A stretch of DNA of 64,000 bases from Candidatus Thorarchaeota archaeon (GCA_048884965.1 JBHLQH010000006.1:99515-163514), one strand, 5' to 3'. Shown: positions 6,217 through 26,568, counted from the stretch's first letter. A program made the numbers and translations. Notes: generated by a model from the letters alone, not told the origin.

Positions 6217-6325
6217 CTCCCAAAGAGTTCTCCAGTGAATATTGGGTTCTGTCCTATGGGCTTCTATTAGTTTCCGGAATTTTTTACCGATATTATATGA
6301 ACCCGAGAAAGGTGATCTTTCCATA

Positions 6326-11452: not shown

Positions 11453-11854
11453 CTAAGTTGTTGTAGTTGAGTTTGCTTCATACTTGCTTGGACATTGAGC
11501 AAGTATCTCATCTGCAATAATGAGACTTGAAGATTGCAGTTCTCCGATGGCGACCAATTCCTGATCCTCTTGAAGATTCGGTACTTCCCCTGTGACCAAT
11601 ACAGTGATTGTATATTGTTCACCATACATCTGAAGCGTCACATTGGATGATGTGATCGTCAACGAGCCTGATAGGTATTTTCCTTTGACCTGAATTCGCT
11701 GACTCATGTAAGCATCAGGATTCTGTACTACAGAATCAACACTCAGGTATGGATCAACGAATAGATCCATCATGCTGAAAGCTAAGAAACCTACAGAAAC
11801 GATGACAATTACAGTGATGACCATCGCTCTAGTCTTTGGCTTCATTAAGCTCAC
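11453..11854 (-). CDS. ccmE: Heme chaperone CcmE (CxxxY type)
   Basis: N-terminal TM, OB-fold-like core and C-terminal AQCPSKYE. Confidence 0.95.
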   Translation of the reverse strand: MSLMKPKTRAMVITVIVIVSVGFLAFSMMDLFVDPYLSVDSVVQNPDAYMSQRIQVKGKYLSGSLTITSSNVTLQMYGEQYTITVLVTGEVPNLQEDQELVAIGELQSSSLIIADEILAQCPSKYEANSTTTT

Positions 11855-11988
11855 TCCTGCTCCTGCGTATTAACAAGTCGTCGTACAGCATTCTCTACCT
11901 TCATCATCTTCATCATTAGATAGAAGAGAAAAATGAGAATACATCCCCAAAGTATGAGTGCGACAGTGAATAGTTCTGGTTGTTGCAT
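11851..11988 (-). CDS. ccmD: CcmD-like small membrane protein (45 aa, absent from the ORF track)
   Basis: Hand translation MQQPELFTVALILWGCILIFLFYLMMKMMKVENAVRRLVNTQEQE*. One TM plus charged tail, lies exactly between ccmC and ccmE, and its TGA overlaps the ccmE GTG. Confidence 0.8.
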   Translation of the reverse strand: MQQPELFTVALILWGCILIFLFYLMMKMMKVENAVRRLVNTQEQE

Positions 11989-11989
11989 T

Positions 11990-12661
11990 TTACCAACTCC
12001 TAGTCATTCGATATTCCATAAGCTTCTCTGCAGTAGAATCTACCCTATAGGTCAGATCAAGCAATACAAAGTAGACAAGTATGATTGCCACCATAGCTAC
12101 CATCAATGTTATTCCATGCTCGAATCCCATTTGCAGTCCTCCGGGAGTGATCACGATTGGATGCAATGTATTCCAGATATGGATAGACAGATAGCTAAGT
12201 ACTACTGCTGGGAATGCCACTATACTAAATATAGACCCATATTGCGCTCGCACCTCGCGGTCATTCACAGAGGCTCGATAGACAAGCAGACATGCATATG
12301 CAATCCAAAGGATTAGTGTAGTTGTCTCTCGCGGATCCCAATTCCATGGAACACCCCAGGTGACTTCAGCCCACTGCATTCCACTTAGCAAAGTGATGGT
12401 CGTGAAAAGCAATCCCAACTTGATTGATGCCCCGCCAAGCACATCATATCTGATATCTTGTTTCCATAGGTACATGACACCGCAAAATAGAGTTATTCCA
12501 AAGGCCATGTAGGCGGTCAAAGCGGGTGCAACATGCTGGAAGAAAATCCTGATAGATTCACCAAGCGTTGCCTCGGGAGGTGCATAGATCCAAGTCATAT
12601 AGATGTACAGCACACCGATTGCTGCTGTGATGATGTACAGGATTATTCGAAGTAGTTTCAC
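11990..12661 (-). CDS. ccmC: Heme exporter/handling protein CcmC
   Basis: RIFFQHV, WWD motif WGVPWNWDPRET and TLHP, with six TM segments. Confidence 0.96.
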   Translation of the reverse strand: MKLLRIILYIITAAIGVLYIYMTWIYAPPEATLGESIRIFFQHVAPALTAYMAFGITLFCGVMYLWKQDIRYDVLGGASIKLGLLFTTITLLSGMQWAEVTWGVPWNWDPRETTTLILWIAYACLLVYRASVNDREVRAQYGSIFSIVAFPAVVLSYLSIHIWNTLHPIVITPGGLQMGFEHGITLMVAMVAIILVYFVLLDLTYRVDSTAEKLMEYRMTRSW

Positions 12662-12702
12662 AAAGTCACTTCCCTTTGAATGTCCAAGTTGGATTAGCTA
12701 CA

Positions 12703-12718
12703 AATATGAAGCTTTCGC
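12703..12718 (-). promoter_or_regulatory. Putative internal BRE/TATA promoter for ccmCDE
   Basis: Minus strand reads GCGAAAGCTTCATATT about 40 nt upstream of ccmC. The same GCGAAAGCTT element precedes the tfb TATA box at 61657-61672. Confidence 0.45.
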
Positions 12719-12730
12719 TCAAATATCATT

Positions 12731-13405
12731 TCATGATGTGAGCGCGTAATGAAAGATAGCCGCCGATATGGTTACCATTGCAAAGAGATGAACGGCCAAG
12801 AGTTGCAATAGGTAACTAAGTGCGATGATTCCCGGTCCCATAACTAATCCTCTTGTCAATTCTACAAGTAAAATTAGAGCAGAGGTTGCAGTTGGAAAAT
12901 AGACCAAGGGGAATATGGTCGCCTTGGACTCAGATGGCATGGTAAGCGCTGAAGCCATTGAGCCCACTGCAGCCAGATCAAGAGTACCAATGATGAAAGT
13001 AGCAAAGAATAGGGGGTCTGTGATATTGAATGAGAATCCGAACAGAACCATCATCATGGGGATAAGGAAAACCTCAACGGCACCCATGATGAAGAATCCA
13101 TAGATGACCTTTCCTAGATACACTGACCAAGCAGGAATTGGAGCAATTGATATGCCTCTCAAGGTTCCTGTTTCCACCTCTGATAGAAAGACTGGAGCGA
13201 AACCAAACATGCCTGTGAGAAATATGATGACCCAGACCATCGCGCTACCTATCTCAGGATCAACATCGCCTCCCATTCCAAAGGCGAGAGCAAGGACTGC
13301 TATGAGTGCGAAGAGGAACATGGCAAATATCTCGAATGGTTTTCTGAATTGCGTGAGAATGTCTTTCCTTGCAATGGTAAATGCCGCTCCTAATGCTGAT
13401 GTCAT
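12731..13405 (-). CDS. ccmB: Heme exporter permease CcmB
   Basis: IARKDIL, FLSEVETGTL and VYLGK motifs, six TMs, between ccmA and ccmC. Confidence 0.92.
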   Translation of the reverse strand: MTSALGAAFTIARKDILTQFRKPFEIFAMFLFALIAVLALAFGMGGDVDPEIGSAMVWVIIFLTGMFGFAPVFLSEVETGTLRGISIAPIPAWSVYLGKVIYGFFIMGAVEVFLIPMMMVLFGFSFNITDPLFFATFIIGTLDLAAVGSMASALTMPSESKATIFPLVYFPTATSALILLVELTRGLVMGPGIIALSYLLQLLAVHLFAMVTISAAIFHYALTS

Positions 13406-13414
13406 TTCTTCACC

Positions 13415-14095
13415 TCACAGTTTCCCGTCGAATTCAGAGATATCTCCCTGCCCCACAATCTCACCTTTTCGTAAGGTGATAAAGGAGTCACTAATCTTCG
13501 TCCCAAGTGCGATATTGTGAGTAGTAAGAATCGCGGTCTTATGAGATCGAGCTTGACCAAGGTATCCCGAAAAAATCTCAGTTGACTCTATGTCGAGACC
13601 TGCATATGGTTCATCCAATAGTAGTAGATCTGGATTATGTAAGACGGTCCTGATTATATCAAATCTCTTTCTCAATCCAGTGGACAGGTTCTTCGTTGGC
13701 TCATCCAACCAACTTCTTACTCCAAATTGTGACGACAATTCCTCTGCCCTTTGCTCTATACTAATAGATTCCATTCCATAGAGTTTTCCGAAGAAATGCA
13801 AGTTCTCTCTTCCTGAGAGTTCCGGGTAGAGAAGAGGTTTGTCCCCAATGAGACCTAATCTACTTCGAATACTAATGGGATCATCCTCCGGATCGTGACC
13901 AAAGATTTTGATCATTCCTCCGTGAGGTCTGAGGAGGGTCGCGATGATACGCATGAGCGTGGTCTTTCCAGCACCGTTTGCTCCAAAAAGAGCGAGTATC
14001 CCTCCTTCTTTGATATCAAATGTGATCTTCTTAAGGGCAGTGCGGTAACCATACCGTCTGGTAAGGTCTTTCGCCTCAACGATTTTTACGCTCAT
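13415..14095 (-). CDS. ccmA: Heme exporter ABC ATPase CcmA
   Basis: Walker A GANGAGKTT, LSTG signature, Walker B LLLLDEP and H-loop TTHN, adjacent to ccmB. Confidence 0.9.
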   Translation of the reverse strand: MSVKIVEAKDLTRRYGYRTALKKITFDIKEGGILALFGANGAGKTTLMRIIATLLRPHGGMIKIFGHDPEDDPISIRSRLGLIGDKPLLYPELSGRENLHFFGKLYGMESISIEQRAEELSSQFGVRSWLDEPTKNLSTGLRKRFDIIRTVLHNPDLLLLDEPYAGLDIESTEIFSGYLGQARSHKTAILTTHNIALGTKISDSFITLRKGEIVGQGDISEFDGKL

Positions 14096-14176: not shown

Positions 14177-15907
14177 CTAGTGGAATATCTTTCTTCCGAG
14201 CCTTAAGAAAGGCCTTCCCATCGTTAGCATGAATGTAATGGGAACATAGTTTATTACTTCTAAGGCTGCCACACCGATTACAAGTCCAAGACCAAATCCA
14301 ATGATAGCTCCTGCAAGATCTGTGACTGCAAGCCAACCAAGTCCATACGCTCCAAGGATGCCACTGAACCAAAGTCCTGCAAGCCAAAGCACAATTGGCA
14401 CAGCTATACCTGCCACTAGCATGACAAGATAGTTGAACCTCATAGAGAGCTGCAACGGACCTGGGAATACCTTGTTGGGATTCATGACCATCTTTGGATC
14501 CGTCTTCTTCTTCAGACGAGCCATTCCAGCATAGTCTGTCTTACCATAGAAGTTCCTTGAGTGTGCGACATTCCACATTCCTATGGAGTACGCTCTTCCT
14601 TTGTCCTTTAGTCCCAGTTCGATGAAGTCAAGAGACCTGTACCATCCCATCAAGAATGATATCTTCTTTCTCTCGTCATCCAAGAACCAAGCTAGGACAG
14701 CGACTTCTCCTTGATCGGTAACAGCACCTTCCAGTGCATACTGCTCACCCTTGAAGTGCTTATCCACTCGTTCAATGAAGGATTGCATATTCTTCAAAGG
14801 CACGTATACCTCTGAAGGAGCTAGGCTTGGTCCCAAACGTTTTATCCGCATAGGATAGAACCTTTCTGACCACTCATGTTGAGCGGCTTCCTGAGATTCA
14901 ATCTGACCGAAGTTATCCTTGATGATTTTTCTAAAGATAATCTCTTCAGATTCAAGTTCTTGTGGTGGGCCTTCGAAAGCACACAAGAAGACCCAAGGAT
15001 ATGTGGAGTGTGTAGCCATATCGACATCAGTCAGCATATGATTGAAGCCTTCAGTGATGAAATGCAAATAGAATGGATGCGTTTCATCCATCAGATCCTG
15101 CATCGCCCATATCATCTGCTCTTTGGTTCGAAATGATGCAACGAATGGTTTGATTTCGTAGAGGGGCATTACTTTTAGGACCACCTTCGTGATGACCCCC
15201 AAAGTTCCGTTACTATCAACGAAGAATGAAGTAAGATCTAGATTCTTTTCGCCAATCTCACTAAGTGCCCAAACGTACTCATCAGCATCAGGGAAATACC
15301 TGTAATCCTGCTTGACATATTCTTCGATGAATTCATCAGGTGGATTACTTGTCCGAATAATCCTTCCATCCGGTAGAACTACTTCCAAGTCAACAACTTG
15401 GTCTCTCACTCCACCGTATTTAGTGCTTCCAATTCCAGTTCCTCCTGCGGCTACCCATCCTCCAACTGTGCTCGATGGAGCACTGGAAGGATAGGCTTTC
15501 ACAGTGAGTCCTTGATCTTCTAAGTCTTCTAGGAGCTTTCCCCAGATGATGCCTGCTCCAACCTCGATAGTCATGTTGTCCATGTCAATGTTGTAAATCT
15601 CGTTCATTCTGGTCATTTCAATAGCTACACCAGCTTTGGTTGGGAGCGCACCACCATATCCGCTCGTTCCATGTCCTCGCGGGATTACAGGTATCTTGTT
15701 TTTCAGACAATATTTGAGCAAGTTCGATACAATCTCTGAACTCATTGGCTGTGCAACTGCATCAACCTTTGTCTTCAGGATATCATTAACTAGGCCAGGA
15801 AGGGCTCCAACATCATGTGAGTAGAGCTTTCTCATATACTCCTCTGAAGAGAAGAAATCCTCTCCTACTATATCTGCTAGTTCTTGGAGTTGTTTCTGTC
15901 GTAACAT
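14177..15907 (-). CDS. FAD-binding oxidoreductase (VAO/PCMH, GlcD/Dld-like) with C-terminal membrane hairpin, paralog 1
   Basis: PRGHGTSGYGGA, YPSSAPSSTVGGW, GTLGVIT and DPKMVMNPNK motifs, plus two C-terminal TMs. ATG 15907 is preferred because the GTG at 15916 lies within the SD. Confidence 0.88.
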   Translation of the reverse strand: MLRQKQLQELADIVGEDFFSSEEYMRKLYSHDVGALPGLVNDILKTKVDAVAQPMSSEIVSNLLKYCLKNKIPVIPRGHGTSGYGGALPTKAGVAIEMTRMNEIYNIDMDNMTIEVGAGIIWGKLLEDLEDQGLTVKAYPSSAPSSTVGGWVAAGGTGIGSTKYGGVRDQVVDLEVVLPDGRIIRTSNPPDEFIEEYVKQDYRYFPDADEYVWALSEIGEKNLDLTSFFVDSNGTLGVITKVVLKVMPLYEIKPFVASFRTKEQMIWAMQDLMDETHPFYLHFITEGFNHMLTDVDMATHSTYPWVFLCAFEGPPQELESEEIIFRKIIKDNFGQIESQEAAQHEWSERFYPMRIKRLGPSLAPSEVYVPLKNMQSFIERVDKHFKGEQYALEGAVTDQGEVAVLAWFLDDERKKISFLMGWYRSLDFIELGLKDKGRAYSIGMWNVAHSRNFYGKTDYAGMARLKKKTDPKMVMNPNKVFPGPLQLSMRFNYLVMLVAGIAVPIVLWLAGLWFSGILGAYGLGWLAVTDLAGAIIGFGLGLVIGVAALEVINYVPITFMLTMGRPFLRLGRKIFH

Positions 15908-15916
15908 CCTTCTCAC

Positions 15917-17101
15917 CTATCCTAACCTTAGTGCCTCTGCGACGATCTGAGTGAGGTCTTTGAACTCGATCTCTGATTTGCTTTGTTCAATCCCATCCAT
16001 GAATGACATCATGCATGATGGGCATTCACTAACAAGAGCCGAGGCTCCAGTCTTTTCTGCAGCTTTAATTCTACGGGCTGAAACTCGAACTGACATCAAT
16101 GGATTCGTACCCTTGAGGAGTCCTCCACCGCCGCAGCAATCAGCCTTGTTCCTGGTATGCTTCATCTCTCGCAATTCAAGTCCGGGAATGGCATTTAGTA
16201 TCTCACGTGATTCATCGTAGATATCTTGATGCCGTCCAAGCTCGCAAGGGTCATGCCATGTGACGACATGTTGGTAATCCTGGGTGAACTTCAGCTTTCC
16301 TTCTCGAAGCATCCTGGCAAGGAATTGAGAGAATGGAAGGAACTCAATGCCCTTGGTAGATTCTTCTCCAAGGAGATGAGGATACTCCTCATTGAATGCT
16401 CGGTGACATCCCGGACAGTTGAAGATGACCGTCTTGACACCTAGCTCTCTCAATTTGTCAAGGTGATGCTGAGCAAGTTCCTTGGCCTTGGCCCATTCAC
16501 CACCAACAAAGTATGGATTTCCACAACAGTACTCATCTTCTCCGAGTATTGTGTAATCGATTCCTAGATGTTCCATTATCTTTGCTGTATTTTCCCCTAT
16601 TGGAGCAAGTGTACCTTTGAAGGAGATATTGCAGCCTGCGAAATAGGCAACTTCGGCTTTCTGCCCAATCTTATCTTCGACTAAATCGTCAACCATGTCT
16701 GTCCAGAGAGTTCGATCCTCTTGGTCAAGGTCCATGATGTTCTTACTACCTTGAATTGAGTTGTCAAGGAATTTGACGATCTCAGGCCAGTGGCCCACTT
16801 CATTGATCTCCTGTCTTATTTTCTGCCAGAAAGTAAGTAGAGGTATATTGGTCTGGCATATCTCTTGACAGGCACCGCATAAGGTACATTTGAAGATTCT
16901 ATCTGCAAAGTCCTCTGGAATAGGTTCATTTTTCAATATGAGTTCCCGAAGCTGATAGAGCTTGCCTCGAGGGGACTGTGAATCCCATAGCGTATCATTA
17001 TACGCTGGGCAAACGAATGTACAGAACCCACATCTTGCGCATACAAGCGGCTCTACATCAAGAGCTGCCTTCCGTAGTTTTTCGAATGTCTTGGTTCCCA
17101 T
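15917..17101 (-). CDS. (Fe-S)-binding protein with 2x[4Fe-4S] and two CCG domains (GlcF/HdrD-like), paralog 1
   Basis: CARCGFCTFVCP, CTLCGACQEIC, YFAGC, CCGNP, CPGC, HDPCELGR, CCGGGG and CPSC. Confidence 0.92.
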   Translation of the reverse strand: MGTKTFEKLRKAALDVEPLVCARCGFCTFVCPAYNDTLWDSQSPRGKLYQLRELILKNEPIPEDFADRIFKCTLCGACQEICQTNIPLLTFWQKIRQEINEVGHWPEIVKFLDNSIQGSKNIMDLDQEDRTLWTDMVDDLVEDKIGQKAEVAYFAGCNISFKGTLAPIGENTAKIMEHLGIDYTILGEDEYCCGNPYFVGGEWAKAKELAQHHLDKLRELGVKTVIFNCPGCHRAFNEEYPHLLGEESTKGIEFLPFSQFLARMLREGKLKFTQDYQHVVTWHDPCELGRHQDIYDESREILNAIPGLELREMKHTRNKADCCGGGGLLKGTNPLMSVRVSARRIKAAEKTGASALVSECPSCMMSFMDGIEQSKSEIEFKDLTQIVAEALRLG

Positions 17102-17114
17102 TGTAATCCTCCTC

Positions 17115-17612
17115 TTATGGCCATGGAAGTCCTAACCAATCAAGTATTGGCTCCAAGATTGATGTATTGTAAACTGCTATACCACCCATTGCACCCATCA
17201 GGATCATGAGTGCGCCACCGACTACAACTAGAATTCCGTAGATGAGGAACCCTGATGTAGTATCCCAGACCTTATCACCTAGTTTTGCTCGTACGATGAC
17301 TAGAAAAACATAGATTTGAGTAGTGATGGCTGAAAAGAGGATCTTGAATCTCATGTAGGGGTCGAGAACTAGTGCTTCTACTGGCCAATCAAGAAAGCCT
17401 GTGAACATCGCTGCTACCAGTCCAAGCAAACCAATGATATTTCCCCAGAAGATAAAGACATCAAACTCATGAAAGATTCTTGACATCCTTGTCCCAGGGG
17501 TCTTGATGGCCTCTCTGAATACAAGTCTAAATAATAGATTGAAAAGACCTAGCGCTGCACAAGCTGCTAGAATTCCTGTGTGGAAGTGAACGAAAACCGG
17601 ATGTAATGCCAT
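17115..17612 (-). CDS. DUF2231-like 4-TM membrane protein (putative b-type heme protein)
   Basis: N-terminal LHPVFVHF, AMFTG and G..GG.AVY motifs, with four hydrophobic segments. Confidence 0.72.
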   Translation of the reverse strand: MALHPVFVHFHTGILAACAALGLFNLLFRLVFREAIKTPGTRMSRIFHEFDVFIFWGNIIGLLGLVAAMFTGFLDWPVEALVLDPYMRFKILFSAITTQIYVFLVIVRAKLGDKVWDTTSGFLIYGILVVVGGALMILMGAMGGIAVYNTSILEPILDWLGLPWP

Positions 17613-17622
17613 TTCTTGTCAC

Positions 17623-18240
17623 CTACCTCTGCGTCCTCTTGCACATCACGACACCAAAGATCACTAGCATGACTGCGACTATTGGATTAAGCGTGTACAT
17701 CAAGAATGTCCAAAGCTCTACTCGTTCCTGCTCAGGATCCACTGTGGTTGTAGTAGTAGTTGATGTAGGGGGAGTAAATGTTGTATCAGTATTCTCCTCT
17801 ACGGTGATACTGACCTCTACACTAGCGGAAAGTTGCTCTCCTGCTGCAACCCAAACCTTGATTGTGAAGGTGCCAGCTGCAAGAGGTGTAATCGATATCT
17901 CTGCGCTGATCTCGCCCGGATTTGAGTCGTCATCACCAGTACCGTCATCTTCTACCTGTGTAAGTGAGAACAAGAACTGATCATTGTCAGCCCAAGCGCT
18001 TACAATCTTCAGGTCGGCAACTCCGTTTCCTCCATCAAAAATGAGGGTAAATGGAACGCCTACTGTTGCATCTACTGTTCCTGTCGCATTCGATGAAAGC
18101 GTCAGGACACTTTGATTTGTGTGACAGTCACCGCACTCAGTGTTGCTTGTTGGAAAGCCGAGTGCCTGTGTTCCGCCAGCCACAATGATTGCTAGAAAGC
18201 AAGTTACAAGTAACAACTTTTTCGCAAGCTTTGGTTTCAA
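17623..18240 (-). CDS. Membrane-anchored monoheme cytochrome c with beta-sandwich domain
   Basis: Signal peptide ending ALG, then FPTSNTE-CGDCH, a beta-rich domain, Thr-rich linker and C-terminal TM. Confidence 0.78.
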   Translation of the reverse strand: MKPKLAKKLLLVTCFLAIIVAGGTQALGFPTSNTECGDCHTNQSVLTLSSNATGTVDATVGVPFTLIFDGGNGVADLKIVSAWADNDQFLFSLTQVEDDGTGDDDSNPGEISAEISITPLAAGTFTIKVWVAAGEQLSASVEVSITVEENTDTTFTPPTSTTTTTTVDPEQERVELWTFLMYTLNPIVAVMLVIFGVVMCKRTQR

Positions 18241-18367
18241 ATTGGGAACTCCTTTTCTTTCTAAACAATGTTAACCTCACAAAATAGTGAGCGATAACTC
18301 AGTTTTGTTTTCAGCTGGAAATTATATTTGGGTATTTTAGTGTGTTGGTACAGAAATGTTTTTGCTA

Positions 18368-20077
18368 CTACCTTCTAAAAAGGTGTCTGATTATTCGTAA
18401 AGCTGGAATACCGATCCGCAATGCTTGTCGGAGTGTCAATGATTTCATGAAGATAAACCCGAAAACGCCTCCAACCAATGAGATGAGGAATGCTGGAGGT
18501 ATATTGGAATCTCCTGACCAAAGTAGTATATCGAGGAATTCGAAGCCTGGAATTATTGGTGCAACTATTTGGGCCGCGATTGCAGCCAAGTATCCAAGAA
18601 TGAACCCGAGACTAAGTGATTTGTTTTTGGCTACAACTCTTCCACCAAAGACCTTCAAAGGATTCATCAGGTTCCTTGGGTCGATTTGAGACTTGATTTT
18701 CTTTAAAGCTGCTTTTTGCTTTTTCCCATAGAATTCATCTGCATAGGGTACATTCCATAGGGCGACAGCGTAAGGCAAGCCATCGAATTTTGCTGCGGTT
18801 GATGCCACATCAAAGGACCTATGCCATCCAAGGGTGTATGAGAGTTTCTTCCTTTCATCATCCAGAATCCATACAAGGAATGAAGTTGTTTTGTCATTGC
18901 TAACGGTGCCCTCTATCGCAATGGCCTCCATTCCTATCGAGTCGACTATCTTCTTATGGAGCCCAGGAAGCTGATTAATGGGAATAATAACCTCTGCAGG
19001 TACCAAGCTAGGTCCCAGCGTTTTGATACGGAGAGGATAGAGTCTTTCATCCCAATGGTACTGAGCCCGCTTTTCACCTGTTATCCCACCCTTATGAGCT
19101 TCGACGATTCTCTTTACCATATCAAGGTCCTCATCTATCTGATAGAATGTATCAAGGAATGCACATGTAAGAATGAATTTGCCATACTCATCGATAGAGC
19201 TCCTGGGAGAAAACCTTTTTGTTGTATATGTATCGGTAATAAAACGCATATAGTATGGCTGGGTTTCTTTGCTGAGGTCTATGATTGCACATGTGAGACT
19301 TTCTATATCATCGAATATGCATACCACTGTTCTAAGTACTAATTTTGGAATCACTCTTAGAGTGATACGAGTAATGATACCAAATGTGCCAAACAATCCG
19401 AGAAAGAGGTCCATTGGCTCAGGTTTCTCATCTTCGGGCAGTTTTTGAAGTACCTCTTGAAGGTACTTGTTCCCTTGGTCTGCAATATTCTCAAGGCCAT
19501 CGTTTTCTCTTAATGCGAACTCTCCGAGTCTCACTAGCATACCATTGGGAATGACTCCTTCTATGCCTGCAACTTGGGTTCTAATATCCCCATATCTCGC
19601 TGATCCAATACCCACACCTCCACTGGCTGCAAAACCTCCAATCGTTGCAGCTGAAGCGCTTGAGGGATAGACCGGAAGAGTAAGCCCAATTTGCTCCAAG
19701 AAAACCAAGAGTTCTTTCCATGTCATCCCAGCTTCGACTGTGACAAGCATTCTATACTCATCGATATGAACGAATTTCGACATATGCAATGTGCTTATGC
19801 AAATTCCACCATGAGTTGGTAGAGCGCCTCCCCATCCGGATGTTCCACTTCCTCGGGGTACTATAGGAATTCTATGTTCAAAGGCGTATTTGACAAGTTT
19901 CGTAAGTGAGCTGATTGTTTGCGGTTGAGTGATAATCTTGAATTGATTGTCAATAATCTGGAATGCCAAGCTCGGAAGAGCTGCGATGTCACGTGAATAC
20001 AGCCTTGTTGTTTCCTCTTGGACTGATACATTATCAGCTCCGACAATGTCTTCGATATTTTGGAGGTGTGCTTTCAT
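18368..20077 (-). CDS. FAD-binding oxidoreductase (GlcD/Dld-like) with C-terminal membrane hairpin, paralog 2
   Basis: PRGSGTSGWGGA, YPSSASAATIGG, RIKTLGPSLVPAE and DPRNLMNP motifs, plus two C-terminal TMs. Confidence 0.88.
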   Translation of the reverse strand: MKAHLQNIEDIVGADNVSVQEETTRLYSRDIAALPSLAFQIIDNQFKIITQPQTISSLTKLVKYAFEHRIPIVPRGSGTSGWGGALPTHGGICISTLHMSKFVHIDEYRMLVTVEAGMTWKELLVFLEQIGLTLPVYPSSASAATIGGFAASGGVGIGSARYGDIRTQVAGIEGVIPNGMLVRLGEFALRENDGLENIADQGNKYLQEVLQKLPEDEKPEPMDLFLGLFGTFGIITRITLRVIPKLVLRTVVCIFDDIESLTCAIIDLSKETQPYYMRFITDTYTTKRFSPRSSIDEYGKFILTCAFLDTFYQIDEDLDMVKRIVEAHKGGITGEKRAQYHWDERLYPLRIKTLGPSLVPAEVIIPINQLPGLHKKIVDSIGMEAIAIEGTVSNDKTTSFLVWILDDERKKLSYTLGWHRSFDVASTAAKFDGLPYAVALWNVPYADEFYGKKQKAALKKIKSQIDPRNLMNPLKVFGGRVVAKNKSLSLGFILGYLAAIAAQIVAPIIPGFEFLDILLWSGDSNIPPAFLISLVGGVFGFIFMKSLTLRQALRIGIPALRIIRHLFRR

Positions 20078-21270
20078 TTCTCCTCCCCCATCTTCTTTTC
20101 TTCCAAGGATTCAGCGACTAGCTCAGTAATGTCTTGCACTTGGAGAGAATAATGCATTGTTTGCGTCGCGGTATCTAGAGCTTGAACACATCTTGGGCAT
20201 TCAGTAACTAATCTTGAGGCTGGAGTAACTGATGCATCCCTGAGACGCATCTCTGCAATCTGGGATGATAGGAAGGGGTCTGCAATATTTAACATCCCGT
20301 GCCATCCGCAGCATCTGGTTTCTTTCCCAGAATGAGCCATCTCTACTTTATAGACCCCTGGTATCCGATCAATTATTTCTCTTGGTTGATTATGAATGTT
20401 TAACCTTCGAGCTGATATACAAGGATCATGATATGTTACAGTAACCATCGGCTGTTCTCTCAATCTCAGCAAGTTCTTCTCTATCAACGATCGGATGAAT
20501 TGTGATGAGGTCAATAATTTGAATTTGTTAGTAATTGGTTCGCCGAGAATACCAGAGTATGTATTGTACCAAGTACTAATGCATGATGGACAGCTGAACA
20601 CGACCTTTTCTATTCCAAGCTCTTCCAGGAGTGAGATGTTCTTTTCTGCTATGAGCGGAGCATTCTCTCTATCTCCACCCCATAATAATGGAGCACCACA
20701 GCATCCTTCCCTCTTCCCTAGTAATGTATAATCCACCCCCGAATGCTCCAAAATCTTGACCATAGAACGAGCAATCCCTCCCAGTTGTGGTTTAAGAGAA
20801 ACATCACATCCAAGTAGGTATGCTGTTTTTGATGGAGCTTCTATTCGTGAAGACACATCGATCTCAAAATTATCAGTCCATTCCATTCGTGCCACAGAGC
20901 CCATTGCAAAGGGGTCTCCATATTTAACAACGGATTCACAAGCGAATTTGACTGAAGGAGGAATCATTCCTCTTTCCCACGCTTCAGCTCTAGCGAATTC
21001 CCAGAATCTATCCAAGCTTAGGCTTGTAGTGCATACATGTGAGCAATACTCGCAGAGGGAGCACATGAAGAGCTTCCTCACATACTCCTCATCAAGGTCT
21101 GCCTTTCCCTCCATGATATCCTTGGTCACTTGGATTCTTCCTCGAGGACCGTAGGATTCCCACTTCAATTGGCGAAAAGTGGGGCACACCATCGTGCAGT
21201 TGCCACATGATGCACAGATATACGGATCCTCTCCATGACCCATGGCATCAATAATTCTAAGCCGTGACAT
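20074..21270 (-). CDS. (Fe-S)-binding CCG-domain protein (GlcF/HdrD-like), paralog 2
   Basis: CASCGNCTMVCP, CSLCEYCSHVC, CCGAP, CPSC, HDPC, CCGWHG and CPRC. Overlaps the downstream FAD gene by 4 nt (ATGA). Confidence 0.92.
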   Translation of the reverse strand: MSRLRIIDAMGHGEDPYICASCGNCTMVCPTFRQLKWESYGPRGRIQVTKDIMEGKADLDEEYVRKLFMCSLCEYCSHVCTTSLSLDRFWEFARAEAWERGMIPPSVKFACESVVKYGDPFAMGSVARMEWTDNFEIDVSSRIEAPSKTAYLLGCDVSLKPQLGGIARSMVKILEHSGVDYTLLGKREGCCGAPLLWGGDRENAPLIAEKNISLLEELGIEKVVFSCPSCISTWYNTYSGILGEPITNKFKLLTSSQFIRSLIEKNLLRLREQPMVTVTYHDPCISARRLNIHNQPREIIDRIPGVYKVEMAHSGKETRCCGWHGMLNIADPFLSSQIAEMRLRDASVTPASRLVTECPRCVQALDTATQTMHYSLQVQDITELVAESLEEKKMGEEK

Positions 21271-21362
21271 ATCTGAACCTCAAAGTATCTGACAAAATTC
21301 CAAATAGAAGAGTGATGTCAGCGGCAGAATATTTGTCGCTGACATTCTTAGTGTTTTGGTCT

Positions 21363-22688
21363 TCAGGCAAAATCATGTGTCATCTCTTGAGCACATGCTA
21401 TGCCAGACTTTGATGCTGCCTCCATCGAGGCATAATACTTGCCGCAGTTTGCAAAAGAACCAGCAACATATAGTCCTTCGATACCCGTTCTATTAGTTCT
21501 CAACCGCTGATCCATAATTCCTGGTGGTTGTGATAGAACAGATCGCCATATCTTCCAGCTCTTTTTCCAAGTGACCTTCTCTTCTATCCCTGGCACGAGT
21601 TCCTTAAGCTCCTCCAAGATAGCTGCTGTAGCTTCTTCATTCTCCATCTTCAAGAGTTCCTTATCAATGGATGTTACTGTTAGAAGGGATTCACCGATTG
21701 GTGCCAACACCCCTGAAACGCGTTTCGCCTCAGCAATGATGTGTATCTTCTTTCCAGGAATGAAACCGCCAACATTGAAATCCAACACTCTGGCAGAAAG
21801 TCCAAAGTATGCAACTACGGACGGTCTGTAGCTGAATTTTCTAACAGCGGTTGTAAAGTCATTTGGTAGTTGGTTCATATCAACGAAGTTTGGCAGGAGA
21901 TCTATCGGTGTCGTTACGACTGCAGCATCGGTTTCGACATAGTGCTCTTTACCATCCTGAGTGTATTCGATTCCCTTGACTTTTTCATCTTCGATGACGA
22001 TCTTTTTCACATCGCAATTGACCTTTGGCTCGATTGCGAAATTCCTTGCCTGGAGCATGAGAGTATATGGAACGCTACCAAGTCCGCCTCTTTCAGGATA
22101 CATCGCTTTGAACCCGTCTTCGTATGCGAATCTGAGCTGTTCGGAATAGAGATATTGTCCAGCAGATACCTCTGCGGGGTCCATGAATGTAACGGTACGA
22201 ATGAGCGGGTCGTAGAAATTAGAGAGAATATCCTCAGGTATCTTCTCTTCTGCATATTCAGCAAATGTCATCTTATCGAGATCGAGAAAATCAGCTTCTG
22301 TTCTTTTTAGATTCTCTTTGACAAGATCCCCCAGTTTCTTTCTATCTCCCAGACCTAGGAGATTGAATCGAGCTTGATCGATAATTGATTGAGTGAGTAA
22401 ATATCGCTCTCCACCTTTGAGCCATACCGCACCCTCTCCGACCGTAGTCATTCGTACTCCACTCCGTTCAAGGATTGGAATTAATGACTTGAAACCTCCA
22501 ACAAAGAAGTGCAAGCCTTGGTCAAAGACATACCCAGATTCGGTAAAGGATCTGGCTCTGCCACCTACAGTAGATTCCTTCTCAAGGATCTGGCATCGCG
22601 CTTTCAAGCCCTTCAGTTCTAGGGCACAGGAGAAGCCTGCGATACCGGCTCCAACTATTACAACTCTTGTTCCTTTTTTCTCACTCAT
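21363..22688 (-). CDS. FAD-dependent oxidoreductase, HemY/protoporphyrinogen oxidase-phytoene desaturase-amine oxidase superfamily
   Basis: VVIVGAGIAG, EKESTVGGRARS, FDQGLH and GLYVAGS...SMEAA..SG. ATG 22688 follows a GAGGTG SD. Confidence 0.85.
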   Translation of the reverse strand: MSEKKGTRVVIVGAGIAGFSCALELKGLKARCQILEKESTVGGRARSFTESGYVFDQGLHFFVGGFKSLIPILERSGVRMTTVGEGAVWLKGGERYLLTQSIIDQARFNLLGLGDRKKLGDLVKENLKRTEADFLDLDKMTFAEYAEEKIPEDILSNFYDPLIRTVTFMDPAEVSAGQYLYSEQLRFAYEDGFKAMYPERGGLGSVPYTLMLQARNFAIEPKVNCDVKKIVIEDEKVKGIEYTQDGKEHYVETDAAVVTTPIDLLPNFVDMNQLPNDFTTAVRKFSYRPSVVAYFGLSARVLDFNVGGFIPGKKIHIIAEAKRVSGVLAPIGESLLTVTSIDKELLKMENEEATAAILEELKELVPGIEEKVTWKKSWKIWRSVLSQPPGIMDQRLRTNRTGIEGLYVAGSFANCGKYYASMEAASKSGIACAQEMTHDFA

Positions 22689-22725
22689 TCGTGACACCTC
22701 ATTCTCAGAATTTCCATTAATCTAT

Positions 22726-23862
22726 TCACTCCTCAACCAATGAAGATTGTGCTAGATCAAGGATCAGCTCATCAAGCTGGATGACCTCAAGGTCAGTTCC
22801 TCGAGCACAATAGCTCAAGTTCTTGAAGCATGAAACACAGGTCGTGATTAGCCCATCAACTCCTAGTTCTACTGCCTCAGCTACTCTCTTCTTCCCTATA
22901 GACTCAGAAAGATCTGGGTCTATAACGCTTACAAAACCCCCGCAGCAATTTGAGTTCTCGCGGTTGTTAGCCATCTCGACAAACTCAAGACCGGGGATGG
23001 CTGTGATAATGTCTCTTGGTGCTTGGTATATCCCAAGGGCCCTGCCAAGGTGGCACGAATCATGGAAGGTATATCTTCCTTCCATACCCTTGAAAGTTAG
23101 GACACCATTCTTTGCCATGTCTGCAAGGACTTCCACAGTATGATGTATCTTGATATCAAAGTCCTTTATCACATGTGAATAATGTTCTGCTAACGTTCCA
23201 AAACATCCTCCACATCCAGTGATGATATGATCTACACCTGCCTTCTTGAACATTGCGTAATTCTTCTTGATGATGGCTTCGAATCCTTCATCATCTCCAG
23301 CCCAATAGTTCATTAGTCCACAGCAAACCTCACTTGGAACATAGCCCACGTTCACCTTCAGCTTCTTCATCATATCAGCTACCATCTCTGGCTGGTCTGG
23401 ATACCAATAAGAGCCCATGCATCCAGAGAAGATAGCGGTATTCGATTCCTCTGGAAGTTCAAGATCCTCTGCCCAAACGGTCCGTTCCTCAGCCTCGTAC
23501 CCAACGAATGGTGTGCCTTCCTTTGCTAGCCAATCGAGGACTTTGGTCAATCCTTCAGATCGAACTCCACCGGTGTTTATCATTGCTGCCTTAGCATCAT
23601 GCCAATACGTTGTTACTGGAACCCCCGCTGGGCAAACAGCTTCACACCTTCTGCAATCTGCGCAATAGAGTCTTTCAAGAAGCTCCTGTGGTGGTTTTGT
23701 TAGCATCTTCTCACCATAGGCTCTAAGGGCTCGCAGCTTACCCCCGGGGCTATCAAGCTCTGAGCCAAGTTCTCTATACATTGGACAAAAGTCTCGGCAA
23801 TAGTTACAAGAACCACATGCTCTGAGAACATCCATATTCAAATCTACTTTCACTTCTTTCAC
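22726..23862 (-). CDS. (Fe-S)-binding CCG-domain protein (GlcF/HdrD-like), paralog 3
   Basis: CGSCNYCRDFCP, CADCRRCEAVCP, FSGC, CCG, CGGC, HDSCHLGR, CCGG and CVSC. Confidence 0.92.
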   Translation of the reverse strand: MKEVKVDLNMDVLRACGSCNYCRDFCPMYRELGSELDSPGGKLRALRAYGEKMLTKPPQELLERLYCADCRRCEAVCPAGVPVTTYWHDAKAAMINTGGVRSEGLTKVLDWLAKEGTPFVGYEAEERTVWAEDLELPEESNTAIFSGCMGSYWYPDQPEMVADMMKKLKVNVGYVPSEVCCGLMNYWAGDDEGFEAIIKKNYAMFKKAGVDHIITGCGGCFGTLAEHYSHVIKDFDIKIHHTVEVLADMAKNGVLTFKGMEGRYTFHDSCHLGRALGIYQAPRDIITAIPGLEFVEMANNRENSNCCGGFVSVIDPDLSESIGKKRVAEAVELGVDGLITTCVSCFKNLSYCARGTDLEVIQLDELILDLAQSSLVEE

Positions 23863-25340
23863 CTCGCAAGAAACTTGGCAAGTCTTCTAAATGCAGTTGC
23901 CAAACCAAACAAGACATTGATTCTACCGTATGATGTCATACAAGATGTAATCCTGTCTGGGTTCATGATATTACTTGGATCCATAGTTCCCTTCGCTTGC
24001 TTCATTTGCTCGAATCTATCACGATATGCTTTCTTCATGTATATCGAATTCTGAAGTCCGATGGTGTATGGACCGCCTCCATATTTGATTGCCCTCTTCA
24101 TCATTTTATGGAGTATTCCCTTACTCGATATGAACTCGAGATATCTATCTGGATTGAGCATGGTCAAGAGTTCCAAACGCATCATGGACCCATAACCAAG
24201 CATCCCATACCAGAGAAGAGGATTCTTGTGAGTCTTTTTGGTCTTCTCATATGCAGTTAGGATATCAAAGACCCTATCTACCTCGACCCAAAGCTCTTGG
24301 AACATTAGTGTATGAGTATGCTCCTTTGGATTGAATTCACAATCATATCGGAGTTCCCATTCTTTTGCGGCATAGTCCTCTCCTACTGATGCTCCACCGC
24401 TAGTTGAGATTATATCAAAGATTTCTGCCACAGGAGCAGTATAAGCATCCTCTGCGTATGTCACTGTCATTACGTATCGTCCTTTTTCAAGAGGATTGCT
24501 ATAGCTCTGGAATTTACTATCAGCTATTTTGAGGTACAATGGTTTTGCCTCAAGCTTTGCGATCTGACTCATTGCATTGCATACCTGTTCAAGATAAGCA
24601 AAACCAAAACTCATTGTTCTCAGATTCGCTGGTTTTGGTCTGATTCTCAGCTTGGCTTCTACGATGACGCCAAGTATACCATAGGACCCATTGTAGAGAC
24701 CCAATTCGGGTCCTTGGATAGTCTGCATTCGACCATCGGGTTGAATAACCTTTACTTCTTCTAGGTTCTCCAGAAGCGTGCCATAATAGGGTGTTCCTAC
24801 TCCTGCTTTTCCACCACATCCTATCCACCCACCGATTACTGCAGATTTTGCACTGGTTGGGTAGATACCAAGCTCAAGCCCTTTCTTGTCAAGCTCAGTT
24901 TCGAGTTGCATGAAAGTGACTCCCGGCTCAACGCGGACATACATATCATTGGAGTCGTCAGATATCTCCAAGATGGCATTGAGTCGCTTCATATCAAGTG
25001 AAATGCCACCTCTTGAGGGACTAGAGGAACCAAGACAGCTTGAAGCTCCTCCTCTGGGAATTACTGGTAGCTTGTGTGAGCTAGCAATTGCGATGATATC
25101 CTTAACTTGATCAATATCGGTTACACGGACGACATAGTCTGCAAGGTATCTTCTCTTCCATCTATAATGAAATTGCGGCAAAGCAGATGGGTCGCCGCTG
25201 TAGACAATCCTTTCCAGCTCCATATCTGAAGCATTCTTTTCTCCAACGACTCCAACCAGTTTCTTGAGTACATCATCGCCTTCTTGAATGGCTTCTACCA
25301 CAACAACTGGTTCATCAGCTTTAGTTTCTGTTTCTGTCAT
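23859..25340 (-). CDS. FAD-binding oxidoreductase (GlcD/Dld-like), paralog 3
   Basis: PRGGASS, YPTSAKSAVIGGW, GSYGILGVI and DPSNIMNP motifs, with a short amphipathic C-tail. Confidence 0.87.
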   Translation of the reverse strand: MTETETKADEPVVVVEAIQEGDDVLKKLVGVVGEKNASDMELERIVYSGDPSALPQFHYRWKRRYLADYVVRVTDIDQVKDIIAIASSHKLPVIPRGGASSCLGSSSPSRGGISLDMKRLNAILEISDDSNDMYVRVEPGVTFMQLETELDKKGLELGIYPTSAKSAVIGGWIGCGGKAGVGTPYYGTLLENLEEVKVIQPDGRMQTIQGPELGLYNGSYGILGVIVEAKLRIRPKPANLRTMSFGFAYLEQVCNAMSQIAKLEAKPLYLKIADSKFQSYSNPLEKGRYVMTVTYAEDAYTAPVAEIFDIISTSGGASVGEDYAAKEWELRYDCEFNPKEHTHTLMFQELWVEVDRVFDILTAYEKTKKTHKNPLLWYGMLGYGSMMRLELLTMLNPDRYLEFISSKGILHKMMKRAIKYGGGPYTIGLQNSIYMKKAYRDRFEQMKQAKGTMDPSNIMNPDRITSCMTSYGRINVLFGLATAFRRLAKFLAR

Positions 25341-25341
25341 G

Positions 25342-26568
25342 TTATCCCATCCTGAAGTATAATCCTAGGTACATCCCTGTAAATCCAAGAATAGTCCATA
25401 ATACGACCGCCGGTAGTCCGAGGTTACACGTCTTCCATCCGCCTAGATGAGTAATGAATGCAAGAGTTCCTAGAATCATGCTGATGATGCCAAGCCAAAT
25501 GTGCCATGAATGCACGAACATGATGATGTTACCTGGATTGATAAGGTACTGAATGTCCATTGCAGTGAACACTGATGGGTCCTCGAAGAAGAGCCAGCAT
25601 ACATTGATCGATGTAAGTATGTAGGCCAATCCTAGCATGATACCATGTGCTCTAGTGTACTTCTCTTCATCATAGTACTCTAATGCAGTTCCGAGGTAGG
25701 CGAGCACAAGTGCTGGAGCTCCTAGTAGCCAACCATAATGAAGCTGTGGTGTTGGTTCTGGTGGAGGTATTGGAATATCTCCCACTCTGTAATCCAACTC
25801 CCAAGACACTGTTTCTTCTCCGGTATCATCACCCGCCACAACTCGATAGATGACATATGTATCATCAGGTTGGCCTGGTATCTCTCCGGAGTATAGTCCT
25901 GCATCAAGAGTCATTGAAACGTTTGTCCATGACGAGCCATTATTTACGGTATATTGTAATCGAACATATGATATCGTTGCAGTTTCGGAGGTAACATTTA
26001 CCACTACTAGAACAGGTTCATTATTCAGAGGAATCGAAGGTGTTCCATTAATCATGTTGATCGATGGCCCAGGTCCTGCTGGTAATGAAACAGTTACCGT
26101 AATGTCTGTATTGATTGAGAGTGGTGTGTGCTGAGCTCCATATACTCGAAGGGTGTATGTCCCTGGAGCGGTAGGAGCAGTGATTGTGTAATTCACTTCC
26201 ACTGCATCAGTAGCTGCATTCGTGTCTAATGGATCGCCATCCTCGACTCTTCCCTCCGCGTCCAATGATGCATAATCAAATTGATTATTATCAACTAAGG
26301 ATGATGGGAACTTCACTACGAGGGTGTTCTCTCCGCTTTCTCCTGTTACACTGATTACAACGCTAAATTGTTCTCCTATTTCCACGGTAACAGAGTTGGG
26401 GGATGCTGAGATACTCATTGACCCTGGACTATCATGGCATCCAGAGGCATCGCACGCCCCAGTTTGTCCTGGAAATCCCAAGACGGTTGTTGACGCTAGG
26501 AATAGGACCGCTGTTGCAATCGCGACGATTATTGCAATCCTAAATTGTTTCTTCACATCGGTCACCAA
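25342..26568 (-). CDS. Fusion of a putative monoheme c domain (CX4CH), an Ig-like domain and a His-rich 4-TM (cytochrome b/DUF420-like) domain
   Basis: Signal peptide ending VLG, then FPGQTGA-CDASGCH. N-domain is visibly homologous to 17623-18240. C-terminal TMs carry LHYGW, RAHGIM, VHSWHIWLG and ITHLG. Confidence 0.7.
   Translation of the reverse strand: MVTDVKKQFRIAIIVAIATAVLFLASTTVLGFPGQTGACDASGCHDSPGSMSISASPNSVTVEIGEQFSVVISVTGESGENTLVVKFPSSLVDNNQFDYASLDAEGRVEDGDPLDTNAATDAVEVNYTITAPTAPGTYTLRVYGAQHTPLSINTDITVTVSLPAGPGPSINMINGTPSIPLNNEPVLVVVNVTSETATISYVRLQYTVNNGSSWTNVSMTLDAGLYSGEIPGQPDDTYVIYRVVAGDDTGEETVSWELDYRVGDIPIPPPEPTPQLHYGWLLGAPALVLAYLGTALEYYDEEKYTRAHGIMLGLAYILTSINVCWLFFEDPSVFTAMDIQYLINPGNIIMFVHSWHIWLGIISMILGTLAFITHLGGWKTCNLGLPAVVLWTILGFTGMYLGLYFRMG

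What the first reader, a model, noticed from the sequence alone, without database searches (positions are those of the whole stretch)
14177..26568. Candidate new transmembrane electron conduit: repeated [outer monoheme c]-[His-rich 4-TM]-[CCG Fe-S]-[membrane-anchored FAD enzyme] modules beside ccmABCDE
Seen: nine co-oriented, mostly tightly coupled genes. They comprise three GlcD-like FAD enzymes each paired with a 2x[4Fe-4S]/2xCCG protein, two paralogous exported heme-c proteins, two different His-bearing 4-TM domains (one DUF2231-like stand-alone, one fused to the cytochrome) and a HemY-like flavoprotein. The four-part logic occurs twice (26568-22726 and 18240-14177), once fused and once split, which is Rosetta-stone evidence for a physical complex. 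Known: HdrDE, DsrMK and the Tmc/Hmc complexes couple CCG proteins to membrane cytochrome b and outer cytochrome c, but use NarI-type membrane subunits and c3-type cytochromes. Inference: this is an analogous wire built from unrelated parts, moving electrons between cytoplasmic substrates and the cell exterior in a probable Asgard archaeon.
Basis: partly seen in the sequence, partly recalled or inferred. Interest (0 to 1): 0.88.

Follow-up and report, generated by a model that had tools for sequence, protein, structure and literature searches.

The report
Asgard flavin–iron–sulfur–heme membrane redox modules
A conserved block of ten genes in Thor-type Asgard archaea pairs unusual flavin and iron-sulfur enzymes with small histidine-bearing membrane proteins and antibody-fold surface proteins that probably carry heme; it most likely passes electrons from the cytoplasm through a membrane quinone to the cell surface, and I found no paper describing it.

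Summary
Real and conserved. The window is from a Thorarchaeota genome. The block has ten genes (not nine), in the same order in at least 12 other genomes and in the same 5 of 16 genera as ccmC. Its core, [His-bearing 4-TM, with or without an outer Ig-fold domain]–[flavoenzyme]–[2x4Fe-4S/2xCCG], recurs in two further Asgard families (49 of 54 TM genes are followed by that flavoenzyme clade). Corrections: the two 4-TM domains show no detectable homology, so the Rosetta-stone argument fails; each keeps ligands for at most one outer-face heme, so a closed diheme wire is unlikely; the flavoenzymes lack the lactate/glycolate dehydrogenase metal site; the fourth gene is HpnE/desaturase-like, not HemY. 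menA lies beside or inside these modules, a sister flavoenzyme is fused to complex I NuoB, and HemB was found in only 1 of 71 genomes. Best reading (0.5): substrate→FAD→Fe-S→naphthoquinone→outer heme b→Ig-fold heme c→surface acceptor, built on scavenged cofactors. It works like EtfD/HdrDE joined to a CYBDOM-like outer unit, without being a member of either. Substrate, direction, heme binding and complex formation are untested. This scan noted the same block before in other genomes.

The parts
25342..26568 (-). g1, 408 aa: signal peptide, Ig-fold domain with N-terminal CX4CH (C39, C44, H45), second Ig spacer, 4-TM domain with conserved H277, H308, H353, H356
26434..26454 (-). CX4CH putative heme c attachment motif of g1 (CX2-5CH in orthologs)
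25345..25746 (-). 4-TM domain of g1, DUF420/cytochrome b561-like spacing; outer His pair H277/H356 and inner H308 kept, TM4 His position is Thr/Cys (Lys in most relatives)
23859..25340 (-). g2, 493 aa: GlcD/AGPS-fold flavoenzyme, no TM helix, no 2-hydroxyacid metal site; the clade that follows the g1-type TM domain
22726..23862 (-). g3, 378 aa: 2x[4Fe-4S] plus two five-Cys CCG domains (HdrD/EtfD-like)
21363..22697 (-). g4, 444 aa: soluble amine-oxidase-fold flavoprotein, closest to HpnE/PRK07233/phytoene desaturase, all below cut-off; 71-83% identical in orthologs
20074..21270 (-). g5, 398 aa: 2x[4Fe-4S] plus two five-Cys CCG domains
18368..20077 (-). g6, 569 aa: GlcD-fold flavoenzyme with C-terminal TM hairpin, no metal site
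17623..18240 (-). g7, 205 aa: signal peptide, Ig-fold domain with CxxCH (C36, C39, H40), Thr-rich stalk, C-terminal TM anchor; no other His or Met in the outer domain
18121..18135 (-). CxxCH motif of g7
17115..17612 (-). g8, 165 aa: DUF2231-like 4-TM protein, invariant H4, H9, H11, H48, K90
15917..17101 (-). g9, 394 aa: 2x[4Fe-4S] plus two five-Cys CCG domains
14177..15916 (-). g10, 579 aa: GlcD-fold flavoenzyme with C-terminal TM hairpin, no metal site; same clade as g6 and the FAD-NuoB fusion
11453..14095 (-). ccmA, ccmB, ccmC, 45-aa ccmD-like ORF (11851-11988), ccmE
8522..10603 (+). ccmF-type heme lyase subunit
4761..6152 (+). exported multiheme cytochrome c (7 CxxCH), candidate downstream acceptor; adjacent to g1 in several relatives

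Best explanation
The block encodes several interchangeable electron-input units and two outlet units of a quinone-linked anaerobic respiratory island. Each flavoenzyme pairs with its neighbouring Fe-S/CCG protein (shown: adjacency, natural FAD-FeS fusions; inferred: binding). FAD oxidises an unknown organic substrate that is not a typical 2-hydroxyacid (shown: metal site absent; substrate unknown). Electrons pass along two cubane clusters to the membrane (inferred from EtfD/HdrD). Each pair is moored in its own way: g2-type on the g1-type 4-TM domain, g6/g10-type by their own TM hairpin, a sister enzyme on complex I NuoB (shown as gene architecture). A naphthoquinone made by MenA carries electrons across the inner half of the membrane (inferred). 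The 4-TM domains each hold one b heme at the outer face (H277/H356 in g1; H9 with K90 or H11 in g8; inferred) and hand electrons to the Ig-fold heme c domains, matured by the adjacent Ccm system (inferred), and on to the multiheme cytochrome or an outside acceptor such as humics, Fe(III) or a partner cell (speculative). Heme and the quinone head group are probably scavenged.
For: Order g1-g10 conserved in at least 12 other genomes. 49 of 54 g1-type TM genes are directly followed by a g2-type flavoenzyme, 45 of these then by a CCG gene, in three Asgard families. These flavoenzymes form one starred clade (100/99) apart from the TM-anchored clade. FAD-FeS fusions in L079 and L118. Best solved relative of the CCG proteins is EtfD, E 7e-59, a flavin-to-Fe-S-to-heme b-to-menaquinone wire (PMC13083937). 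menA passes TIGR00751 (108.8 vs 102.15), lies in the same island here and in 10 fetched neighbourhoods, once between g3 and g4. Sister flavoenzyme fused to NuoB. TM domain and ccmC occur in 32 of 70 Thor genomes each, 29 together, same 5 genera (linked genes and kin, so not independent). In family f9 the Ig-bearing version sits beside ccm genes and the Ig-less version mostly does not. Thor multiheme cytochromes also use CX4-5CH motifs. H277, H308, H356 kept in 39-40 of 41 sequences, TM4 His missing.
Against: No heme binding shown for any part; the Ig domain resembles only generic Ig folds and has no obvious sixth ligand; in 15 of 29 Loki-type fusions only one Cys remains. menA is also present in Thor genera that lack the block (56 of 70), and MenB and MqnA were not found in this genome, so quinone synthesis is not established. 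H308 is as conserved as the outer pair, which a quinone-only model explains less directly than an inner heme. All five Cys in both CCG domains are kept, as in catalytic HdrB, unlike EtfD. Substrate and direction are unknown.
Confidence: 0.5

Rival explanations
1. Direct wire: TM, CCG and FAD subunits form one complex, and an inner heme held by H308 plus a non-His ligand (C381 in g1, Lys in most relatives, or a residue of a partner subunit) gives a continuous FAD-FeS-heme b-heme b-heme c path with no quinone step.
For: H308 kept in 39 of 41; position 381 is Lys in 30, Cys in 5, His in 1; strict TM-FAD-CCG gene coupling; g2-type flavoenzymes lack their own anchor.
Against: Canonical fourth His missing; g8 is unrelated to the g1 TM domain; in four loci the same Ig-TM gene precedes an HdrC-like protein that has its own 6-7 TM anchor, which suggests the Ig-TM unit can work apart from a docked CCG; menA linkage.
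Confidence: 0.22
2. Reverse or disulfide-coupled flow: electrons enter from outside (or from quinol) and the non-cubane CCG clusters reduce a disulfide, or thiols are oxidised, as in HdrDE, TfrB or the proposed GlcD-HdrD pairs; the flavoenzyme couples a second substrate.
For: Both CCG domains keep all five Cys in g3, g5, g9; top NCBIfam models are TfrB and LdhH; HdrD/GlcD pairs were proposed to reduce heterodisulfide in other archaea (PMC6421429); Ig-TM also pairs with HdrC/HdrB-like genes.
Against: All Hdr/Tfr/Dsr/Tmc models score far below cut-off; sequence is closer to non-catalytic EtfD than to HdrB; no thiol carrier identified.
Confidence: 0.14
3. Heme capture and remodelling: the surface Ig domains and His-bearing 4-TM proteins bind and traffic scavenged heme (CtaM-like), and the FAD/Fe-S pairs and g4 supply redox power for modifying heme or another cofactor rather than for respiration.
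For: HemB found in 1 of 71 Thor and 0 of 5 Loki-type genomes, HemA not found here; TM domain is weakly DUF420/CtaM-like, CtaM being a proposed heme O/A chaperone next to ctaB (PMC4958251); the Ig-less Loki variant lies next to a heme O synthase-like gene in six loci; single-Cys or Cys-free motifs in many Ig domains.
Against: Two-Cys motif invariant in Thor and tied to Ccm, which makes covalent, non-exchangeable heme; heme A synthase motif E-x-x-H-R absent; three to four paralogous FAD/CCG pairs and a NuoB fusion fit bulk electron flow better; no heme O synthase in this genome.
Confidence: 0.12

Closest known systems
EtfD / EMO (M. smegmatis, PDB 9ojn; PMC13083937) and HdrDE
   Same: Two cubane plus two CCG domains in one chain (E 7e-59); flavin donor, membrane heme b and naphthoquinone in the same functional unit.
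   Different: EtfD has a fused 5-TM domain with a heme 7 A from a cubane and takes electrons from soluble ETF; here the membrane part is a separate 4-TM domain of another family with its His pair at the outer face, the flavin partner is a GlcD-fold enzyme, all CCG cysteines are kept, and there is an outer heme c candidate.
DsrMK(JOP), TmcABCD, HmcABCDEF
   Same: CCG protein inside, membrane cytochrome b, c-type cytochrome outside (known architecture, from own knowledge).
   Different: DsrK, TmcB and HmcF models score 39-108 bits against cut-offs of 400-750; no NarI-type subunit; outer domain is a single-motif Ig fold, not a multiheme c3; a flavoenzyme is part of each unit.
GlcDEF, D-lactate dehydrogenase (Dld/LctD) and archaeal GlcD-HdrD pairs (PMC6421429)
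   Same: FAD_binding_4/FAD-oxidase_C protein next to a Fer4/CCG protein.
   Different: GHxGDGNxH and EHG metal ligands replaced (Y-S/T/A-I/V-G/A at the EHG site); glcD model at most 152 of 568 bits; dedicated membrane and surface partners.
CYBDOM proteins (DOMON + cytochrome b561; FRRS1/SDR2, CG8399; PMC10691727)
   Same: Outer beta-sandwich heme domain fused N-terminally to a four-helix His-bearing membrane core; also occurs as a stand-alone TM form.
   Different: Only three of four heme His; outer domain has a Cys/His motif, not the DOMON Met/His pair; PF03188 only weak (3 of 41, best E 0.006); donor is a dedicated FAD/Fe-S pair, not ascorbate. Analogy, homology not shown.
DUF420/CtaM and DUF2231
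   Same: 4-TM size and part of the His pattern.
   Different: DUF420 keeps TM2, TM3, TM4 His, this family TM1, TM2, TM3; g8 has Lys at the start of TM3 and an extra His in HPxxxHFH; no function is published for DUF2231 in the library searched.
Cytochrome f (lead from own knowledge)
   Same: Beta-rich exported domain, heme motif close to the mature N-terminus, frequent Pro at position 2, C-terminal TM anchor, no His/Met sixth ligand in sequence.
   Different: No sequence match; only 6-10 residues precede the motif; N-terminal amine ligation is conjecture.

Membership tests
HdrDE / EtfD / DsrMK type | Fe-S subunit with two cubane motifs and two CCG domains | tested here: met
HdrDE / EtfD / DsrMK type | NarI-type five-helix cytochrome b membrane subunit | tested here: not met
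   Both membrane domains have four helices; no NarI-family Pfam match among 41 TM members or on g8
HdrDE / EtfD / DsrMK type | Curated equivalog cut-off (TfrB, DsrK, TmcB, HmcF, HdrB) | tested here: not met
   best 167/385, 58/400, 108/735, 90/750, 43/450
HdrDE / EtfD / DsrMK type | Disulfide or quinone reactivity | not testable with these tools
   needs assay
GlcD / D-lactate dehydrogenase | FAD_binding_4 plus FAD-oxidase_C fold | tested here: met
GlcD / D-lactate dehydrogenase | His-His-Glu metal site (GHxGDGNxH, EHG) | tested here: not met
Cytochrome b561 / CYBDOM | Four heme-ligating His H1-H4 in four successive helices | tested here: not met
   H277, H308, H356 kept; fourth position Thr/Cys/Lys
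Cytochrome b561 / CYBDOM | DOMON domain with Met/His heme ligands | tested here: not met
   only one invariant His, in a C..CH motif; no Met in the g7 outer domain
Cytochrome b561 / CYBDOM | b561 and DOMON folds | tested here: inconclusive
   four-helix bundle and Ig sandwich predicted; top rows generic
DUF420 / CtaM | PF04238 match and His pattern | tested here: inconclusive
   8 of 41 members match, best E 8.5e-6; hhalign 10% to canonical, 74% to DUF420-like; TM4 His absent
DUF2231 | PF09990 match, HPxxxHF motif | tested here: inconclusive
   motif present; g8 itself no match; 16 of 92 homologs carry it; Atlas neighbours 0.85-0.86
c-type cytochrome (System I) | Export signal, CxxCH-type motif, Ccm genes in the genome | tested here: met
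   g7 canonical, g1 CX4CH; ccmABCDE and ccmF adjacent
c-type cytochrome (System I) | Covalently bound heme and a sixth ligand | not testable with these tools
   needs heme stain, mass spectrometry, spectroscopy
HemY protoporphyrinogen oxidase (g4) | TIGR00562 cut-off | tested here: not met
   41.8 versus 97.85 bits; HpnE 111 and PRK07233 103 bits score higher, also below cut-off
Heme A synthase, 4-TM type 1A | E-x-x-H-R motif at the first His (PMC12808453) | tested here: not met
   no conserved Glu three residues before, nor Arg after, H277 or H308

The most novel reading that the evidence does not exclude
Thor- and Loki-type Asgard archaea, which seem unable to make heme, run surface-directed electron transfer with a new class of cytochrome: an Ig-fold domain whose N-terminal heme motif ranges from CX2-5CH to single-cysteine HxxCH, fused to a three-His membrane cytochrome and fed by a non-canonical flavoenzyme/CCG pair. 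It would be a prokaryotic counterpart of eukaryotic CYBDOM proteins built from other parts, working on scavenged heme and naphthoquinone.
Probability: 0.35. Interest if true: 0.86.

Novelty: new variant of a known kind. Interest (0 to 1): 0.68.

Why it matters
Thor- and Loki-type Asgard archaea are mostly pictured as fermenters that depend on hydrogen or formate exchange. A conserved unit that links cytoplasmic flavin chemistry to surface hemes, in nearly half of the Thor genomes searched and about a quarter of the largest other family, would give them a route for respiration or direct electron exchange with partners, which bears on models of the archaeal host in eukaryogenesis. It also supplies concrete test objects: a small soluble Ig-fold cytochrome candidate, a first functional context for DUF2231, a flavoenzyme clade of unknown substrate, and a variant in a closed genome that matches the cultured strain MK-D1 in size.

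Tried and rejected
Complex prediction of g2 + g3 + g1 TM domain gave 'no answer' (score 0.00); it is used neither for nor against binding. Fold searches listed no cytochrome b561, DOMON, reeler, NEAT or cytochrome f rows in the top 50; the helical hits (COX subunit III, designed bundles, Z up to 13.5) are within the range of generic bundles. PDB sequence searches with the Ig and TM profiles found nothing significant. PF03188 and PF09990 searches of the own genome did not pick up g1 or g8. Promoter and terminator scans gave fewer sites than shuffles and use bacterial rules. Literature searches found no description of the block. A recalled His/Lys heme ligation in HemJ, as a model for g8 H9/K90, could not be confirmed in the library and stays a lead. 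Rejected: HemY for g4, lactate/glycolate dehydrogenase for g2/g6/g10, Rosetta-stone equivalence of g8 and the g1 TM domain, heme A synthase. Distribution outside the phylum was not tested properly; one homolog is labelled Bathyarchaeota and one Thermoplasmata by their sources, possibly misbinned.


Full report
Observation. The stretch 26568-14177 holds ten minus-strand genes, here g1-g10, with gaps of -4 to 127 bases, followed 81 bases later by ccmA, B, C, a 45-residue ccmD-like ORF and ccmE; ccmF and a seven-motif multiheme cytochrome lie on the other strand nearby. g2, g6 and g10 are FAD_binding_4/FAD-oxidase_C proteins, g3, g5 and g9 are Fer4_8 plus two CCG domains, g4 is an amine-oxidase-fold flavoprotein, and g1, g7 and g8 have no significant Pfam match.

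Conservation. The order g1-g10 is intact in at least 12 other genomes, and in many a further unit follows: a stand-alone copy of the g1 membrane domain, a g2-type flavoenzyme and a CCG gene. In 70 family genomes the g1-type TM domain is found in 32, ccmC in 32 (29 shared) and g8 in 29, always in the same 5 of 16 genera; these genes are linked and the genomes are kin, so this is not independent co-evolution. The TM domain also occurs in two other Asgard families (24 of 92 and 5 of 9); the matching Atlas cluster is Promethearchaeota. Of 54 distinct TM genes in fetched loci, 49 are directly followed by a g2-type flavoenzyme (45 then by a CCG gene), four by an HdrC-like gene, and one follows a FAD-CCG fusion. 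The real conserved core is therefore TM-FAD-CCG, with an optional outer domain; in family f9 the version with the outer domain lies beside ccm genes.

Outer domain. g1 and g7 start with a signal peptide, then after 6-10 residues a C..CH motif, then an Ig-like sandwich (model pLDDT 92; generic Ig hits only; weak choice-of-anchor V matches in 15 of 49). In Thor both Cys and the His are invariant but spacing runs from CX2CH to CX5CH, as it does in their multiheme cytochromes. In Loki-type fusions only the His is fully kept; 15 of 29 have one Cys, often HxxCH. g7 has no other His or Met outside the membrane, so the sixth ligand would be the N-terminal amine (as in cytochrome f, own knowledge), a partner residue such as g1 H353 or g8 H4/H11, or absent. 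Heme binding is inferred, not shown.

Membrane domains. The g1 domain has four helices with His at the starts of TM1 (277), TM2 (308) and TM3 (356) in 39-40 of 41 sequences; the TM4 position that completes the inner pair in cytochrome b561 and DUF420 is Thr/Cys/Lys (four His define b561, PMC10691727). Since the Ig domains precede it, TM1 and TM3 start outside, so H277/H356 make an outer-face pair and H308 stands alone inside. Resemblance to DUF420 is weak. g8 is DUF2231-like through its homologs, with invariant H4, H9, H11, H48 and K90. The two TM families show no profile similarity, and the two modules differ in order and anchoring, so they are analogous, not a fused and a split form.

Cytoplasmic parts. 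All three CCG proteins keep two cubane motifs and five Cys in each CCG domain. Their closest solved relative is EtfD, then HdrB. EtfD wires flavin through Fe-S clusters to one heme b and menaquinone, and has lost catalytic cysteines that HdrB keeps (PMC13083937). The flavoenzymes lack the His/His/Glu metal site of D-lactate and glycolate dehydrogenases, so the substrate is something else. They form two starred clades: TM-less g2-type enzymes that go with the g1-type domain in three families, and g6/g10-type enzymes with their own TM hairpin, whose third member is fused to NuoB. g4 is nearer to HpnE and phytoene desaturase than to HemY.

Context. Upstream on the same contig lie a geranylgeranyl reductase family gene, a polyprenyl synthase, menA (above the TIGR00751 cut-off) and a nuo operon. 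menA lies in ten other fetched neighbourhoods of these modules, once between g3 and g4, but it is also common in Thor genera without the block. MenB and MqnA were not found here, nor HemA; HemB was found in 1 of 71 Thor genomes. Heme and the naphthoquinone head group are probably taken up (inference; MAGs are incomplete).

Mechanism. Most likely (0.5) the flavoenzyme/Fe-S pairs oxidise unknown organic substrates and reduce a membrane naphthoquinone, and the 4-TM proteins, each with one outer-face heme b, pass electrons to the Ig-fold heme c domains and on to the multiheme cytochrome or an outside acceptor. Gene architecture, motifs and conservation are shown; cofactors, contacts, quinone and direction are inferred. 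Rivals: a direct wire with an unusual inner heme on H308 (0.22); disulfide-coupled or inward flow as proposed for GlcD-HdrD pairs (PMC6421429; 0.14); heme capture and remodelling, suggested by auxotrophy, CtaM likeness (PMC4958251) and the heme O synthase neighbour in Loki-type loci (0.12).

Comparison and novelty. It works like EtfD/HdrDE/DsrMK on the inside and like CYBDOM proteins on the outside, but fails defining tests for each (membrane subunit family, curated cut-offs, four-His pattern, DOMON ligands). Literature searches found no account of the block or of a function for DUF2231. I class it as a new variant of a known kind: known logic, new parts. Earlier notes of this scan describe the same block in other genomes; they gave me the EtfD and NuoB leads, which I checked, and are not counted as support. 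Interest 0.68; if the Ig domains prove to be cytochromes that run on scavenged heme, about 0.86.

Noticed in passing
G000:C6:89195-91135 (L131:9596-11536), 8 kb before the window: A sister of g6/g10 is fused at its C-terminus to NuoB (PF01058, 88 bits) and faces a divergent CCG gene; lead from e1-5584372, confirmed here and in G008.
   Followed up: partly
G000:C6:81339-85964 (L131): Geranylgeranyl reductase family gene, polyprenyl diphosphate synthase and menA lie together just before the nuo operon; with the window this makes a respiratory island of about 45 kb.
   Followed up: partly
whole genome and 70 relatives: HemB found in only 1 of 71 Thor genomes and 0 of 5 Loki-type genomes, HemA not found here, no PF01497 binding protein here: cytochrome-encoding organisms with no visible tetrapyrrole synthesis or standard heme uptake.
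   Followed up: partly
L112, L114-L117, L120, L121, L130; P0246, P0251, P0267 and others: In Loki-type Ig domains next to ccm genes the motif is often HxxCH or CxCH with a single or closely spaced Cys; possible single-thioether heme attachment.
   Followed up: partly
L113, L119, L127-L129 (also L122-L124): The Ig-less module follows a ~500-aa polytopic protein with five conserved His and no Pfam/NCBIfam match, and usually a heme O synthase-like gene (197-200 bits, cut-off 210), in genomes with no COX1 match (four tested).
   Followed up: partly
L111, L125, L126: The same Ig-TM gene precedes a 6-7 TM protein fused to an HdrC-like domain and an HdrB-like gene, without a flavoenzyme.
   Followed up: partly
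L122 (G293:C1, 4,324,194 bases, one contig): Closed genome with the Ig-less module; size and about 32% GC in the fetched stretch fit the cultured Promethearchaeum syntrophicum MK-D1 (4.32 Mb, 31.1%; PMC11316595). Identity not proven.
   Followed up: partly
G000:C2:39037-41370 (L135:14038-16371): A third copy of the CxxCH Ig domain heads a 777-aa surface protein with PKD-like domains; in G008 and G005 its ortholog sits beside the FAD-NuoB/CCG pair.
   Followed up: no
window 4761-6152: Exported multiheme cytochrome with 7 CxxCH; relatives show CX4-5CH variants; earlier notes report CxxCM and CX6CH motifs.
   Followed up: partly
   Followed up: no
window 6242-8521: 759-aa exported alpha/alpha-barrel-like protein (weak GH88 match) with Ig domains, conserved between the multiheme cytochrome and ccmF.
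   Followed up: no
window 31589-38038 and 49827-58730: A 2149-aa multi-TM protein with no Pfam match and a 2967-aa Ig-repeat surface protein.
   Followed up: no
G000:C2:61539-66598 (L133): Carotenoid-type cluster (two CrtI-like genes, a synthase-like gene, PRK12875 prenyltransferase above cut-off); of possible relevance to the desaturase-like g4.
   Followed up: no
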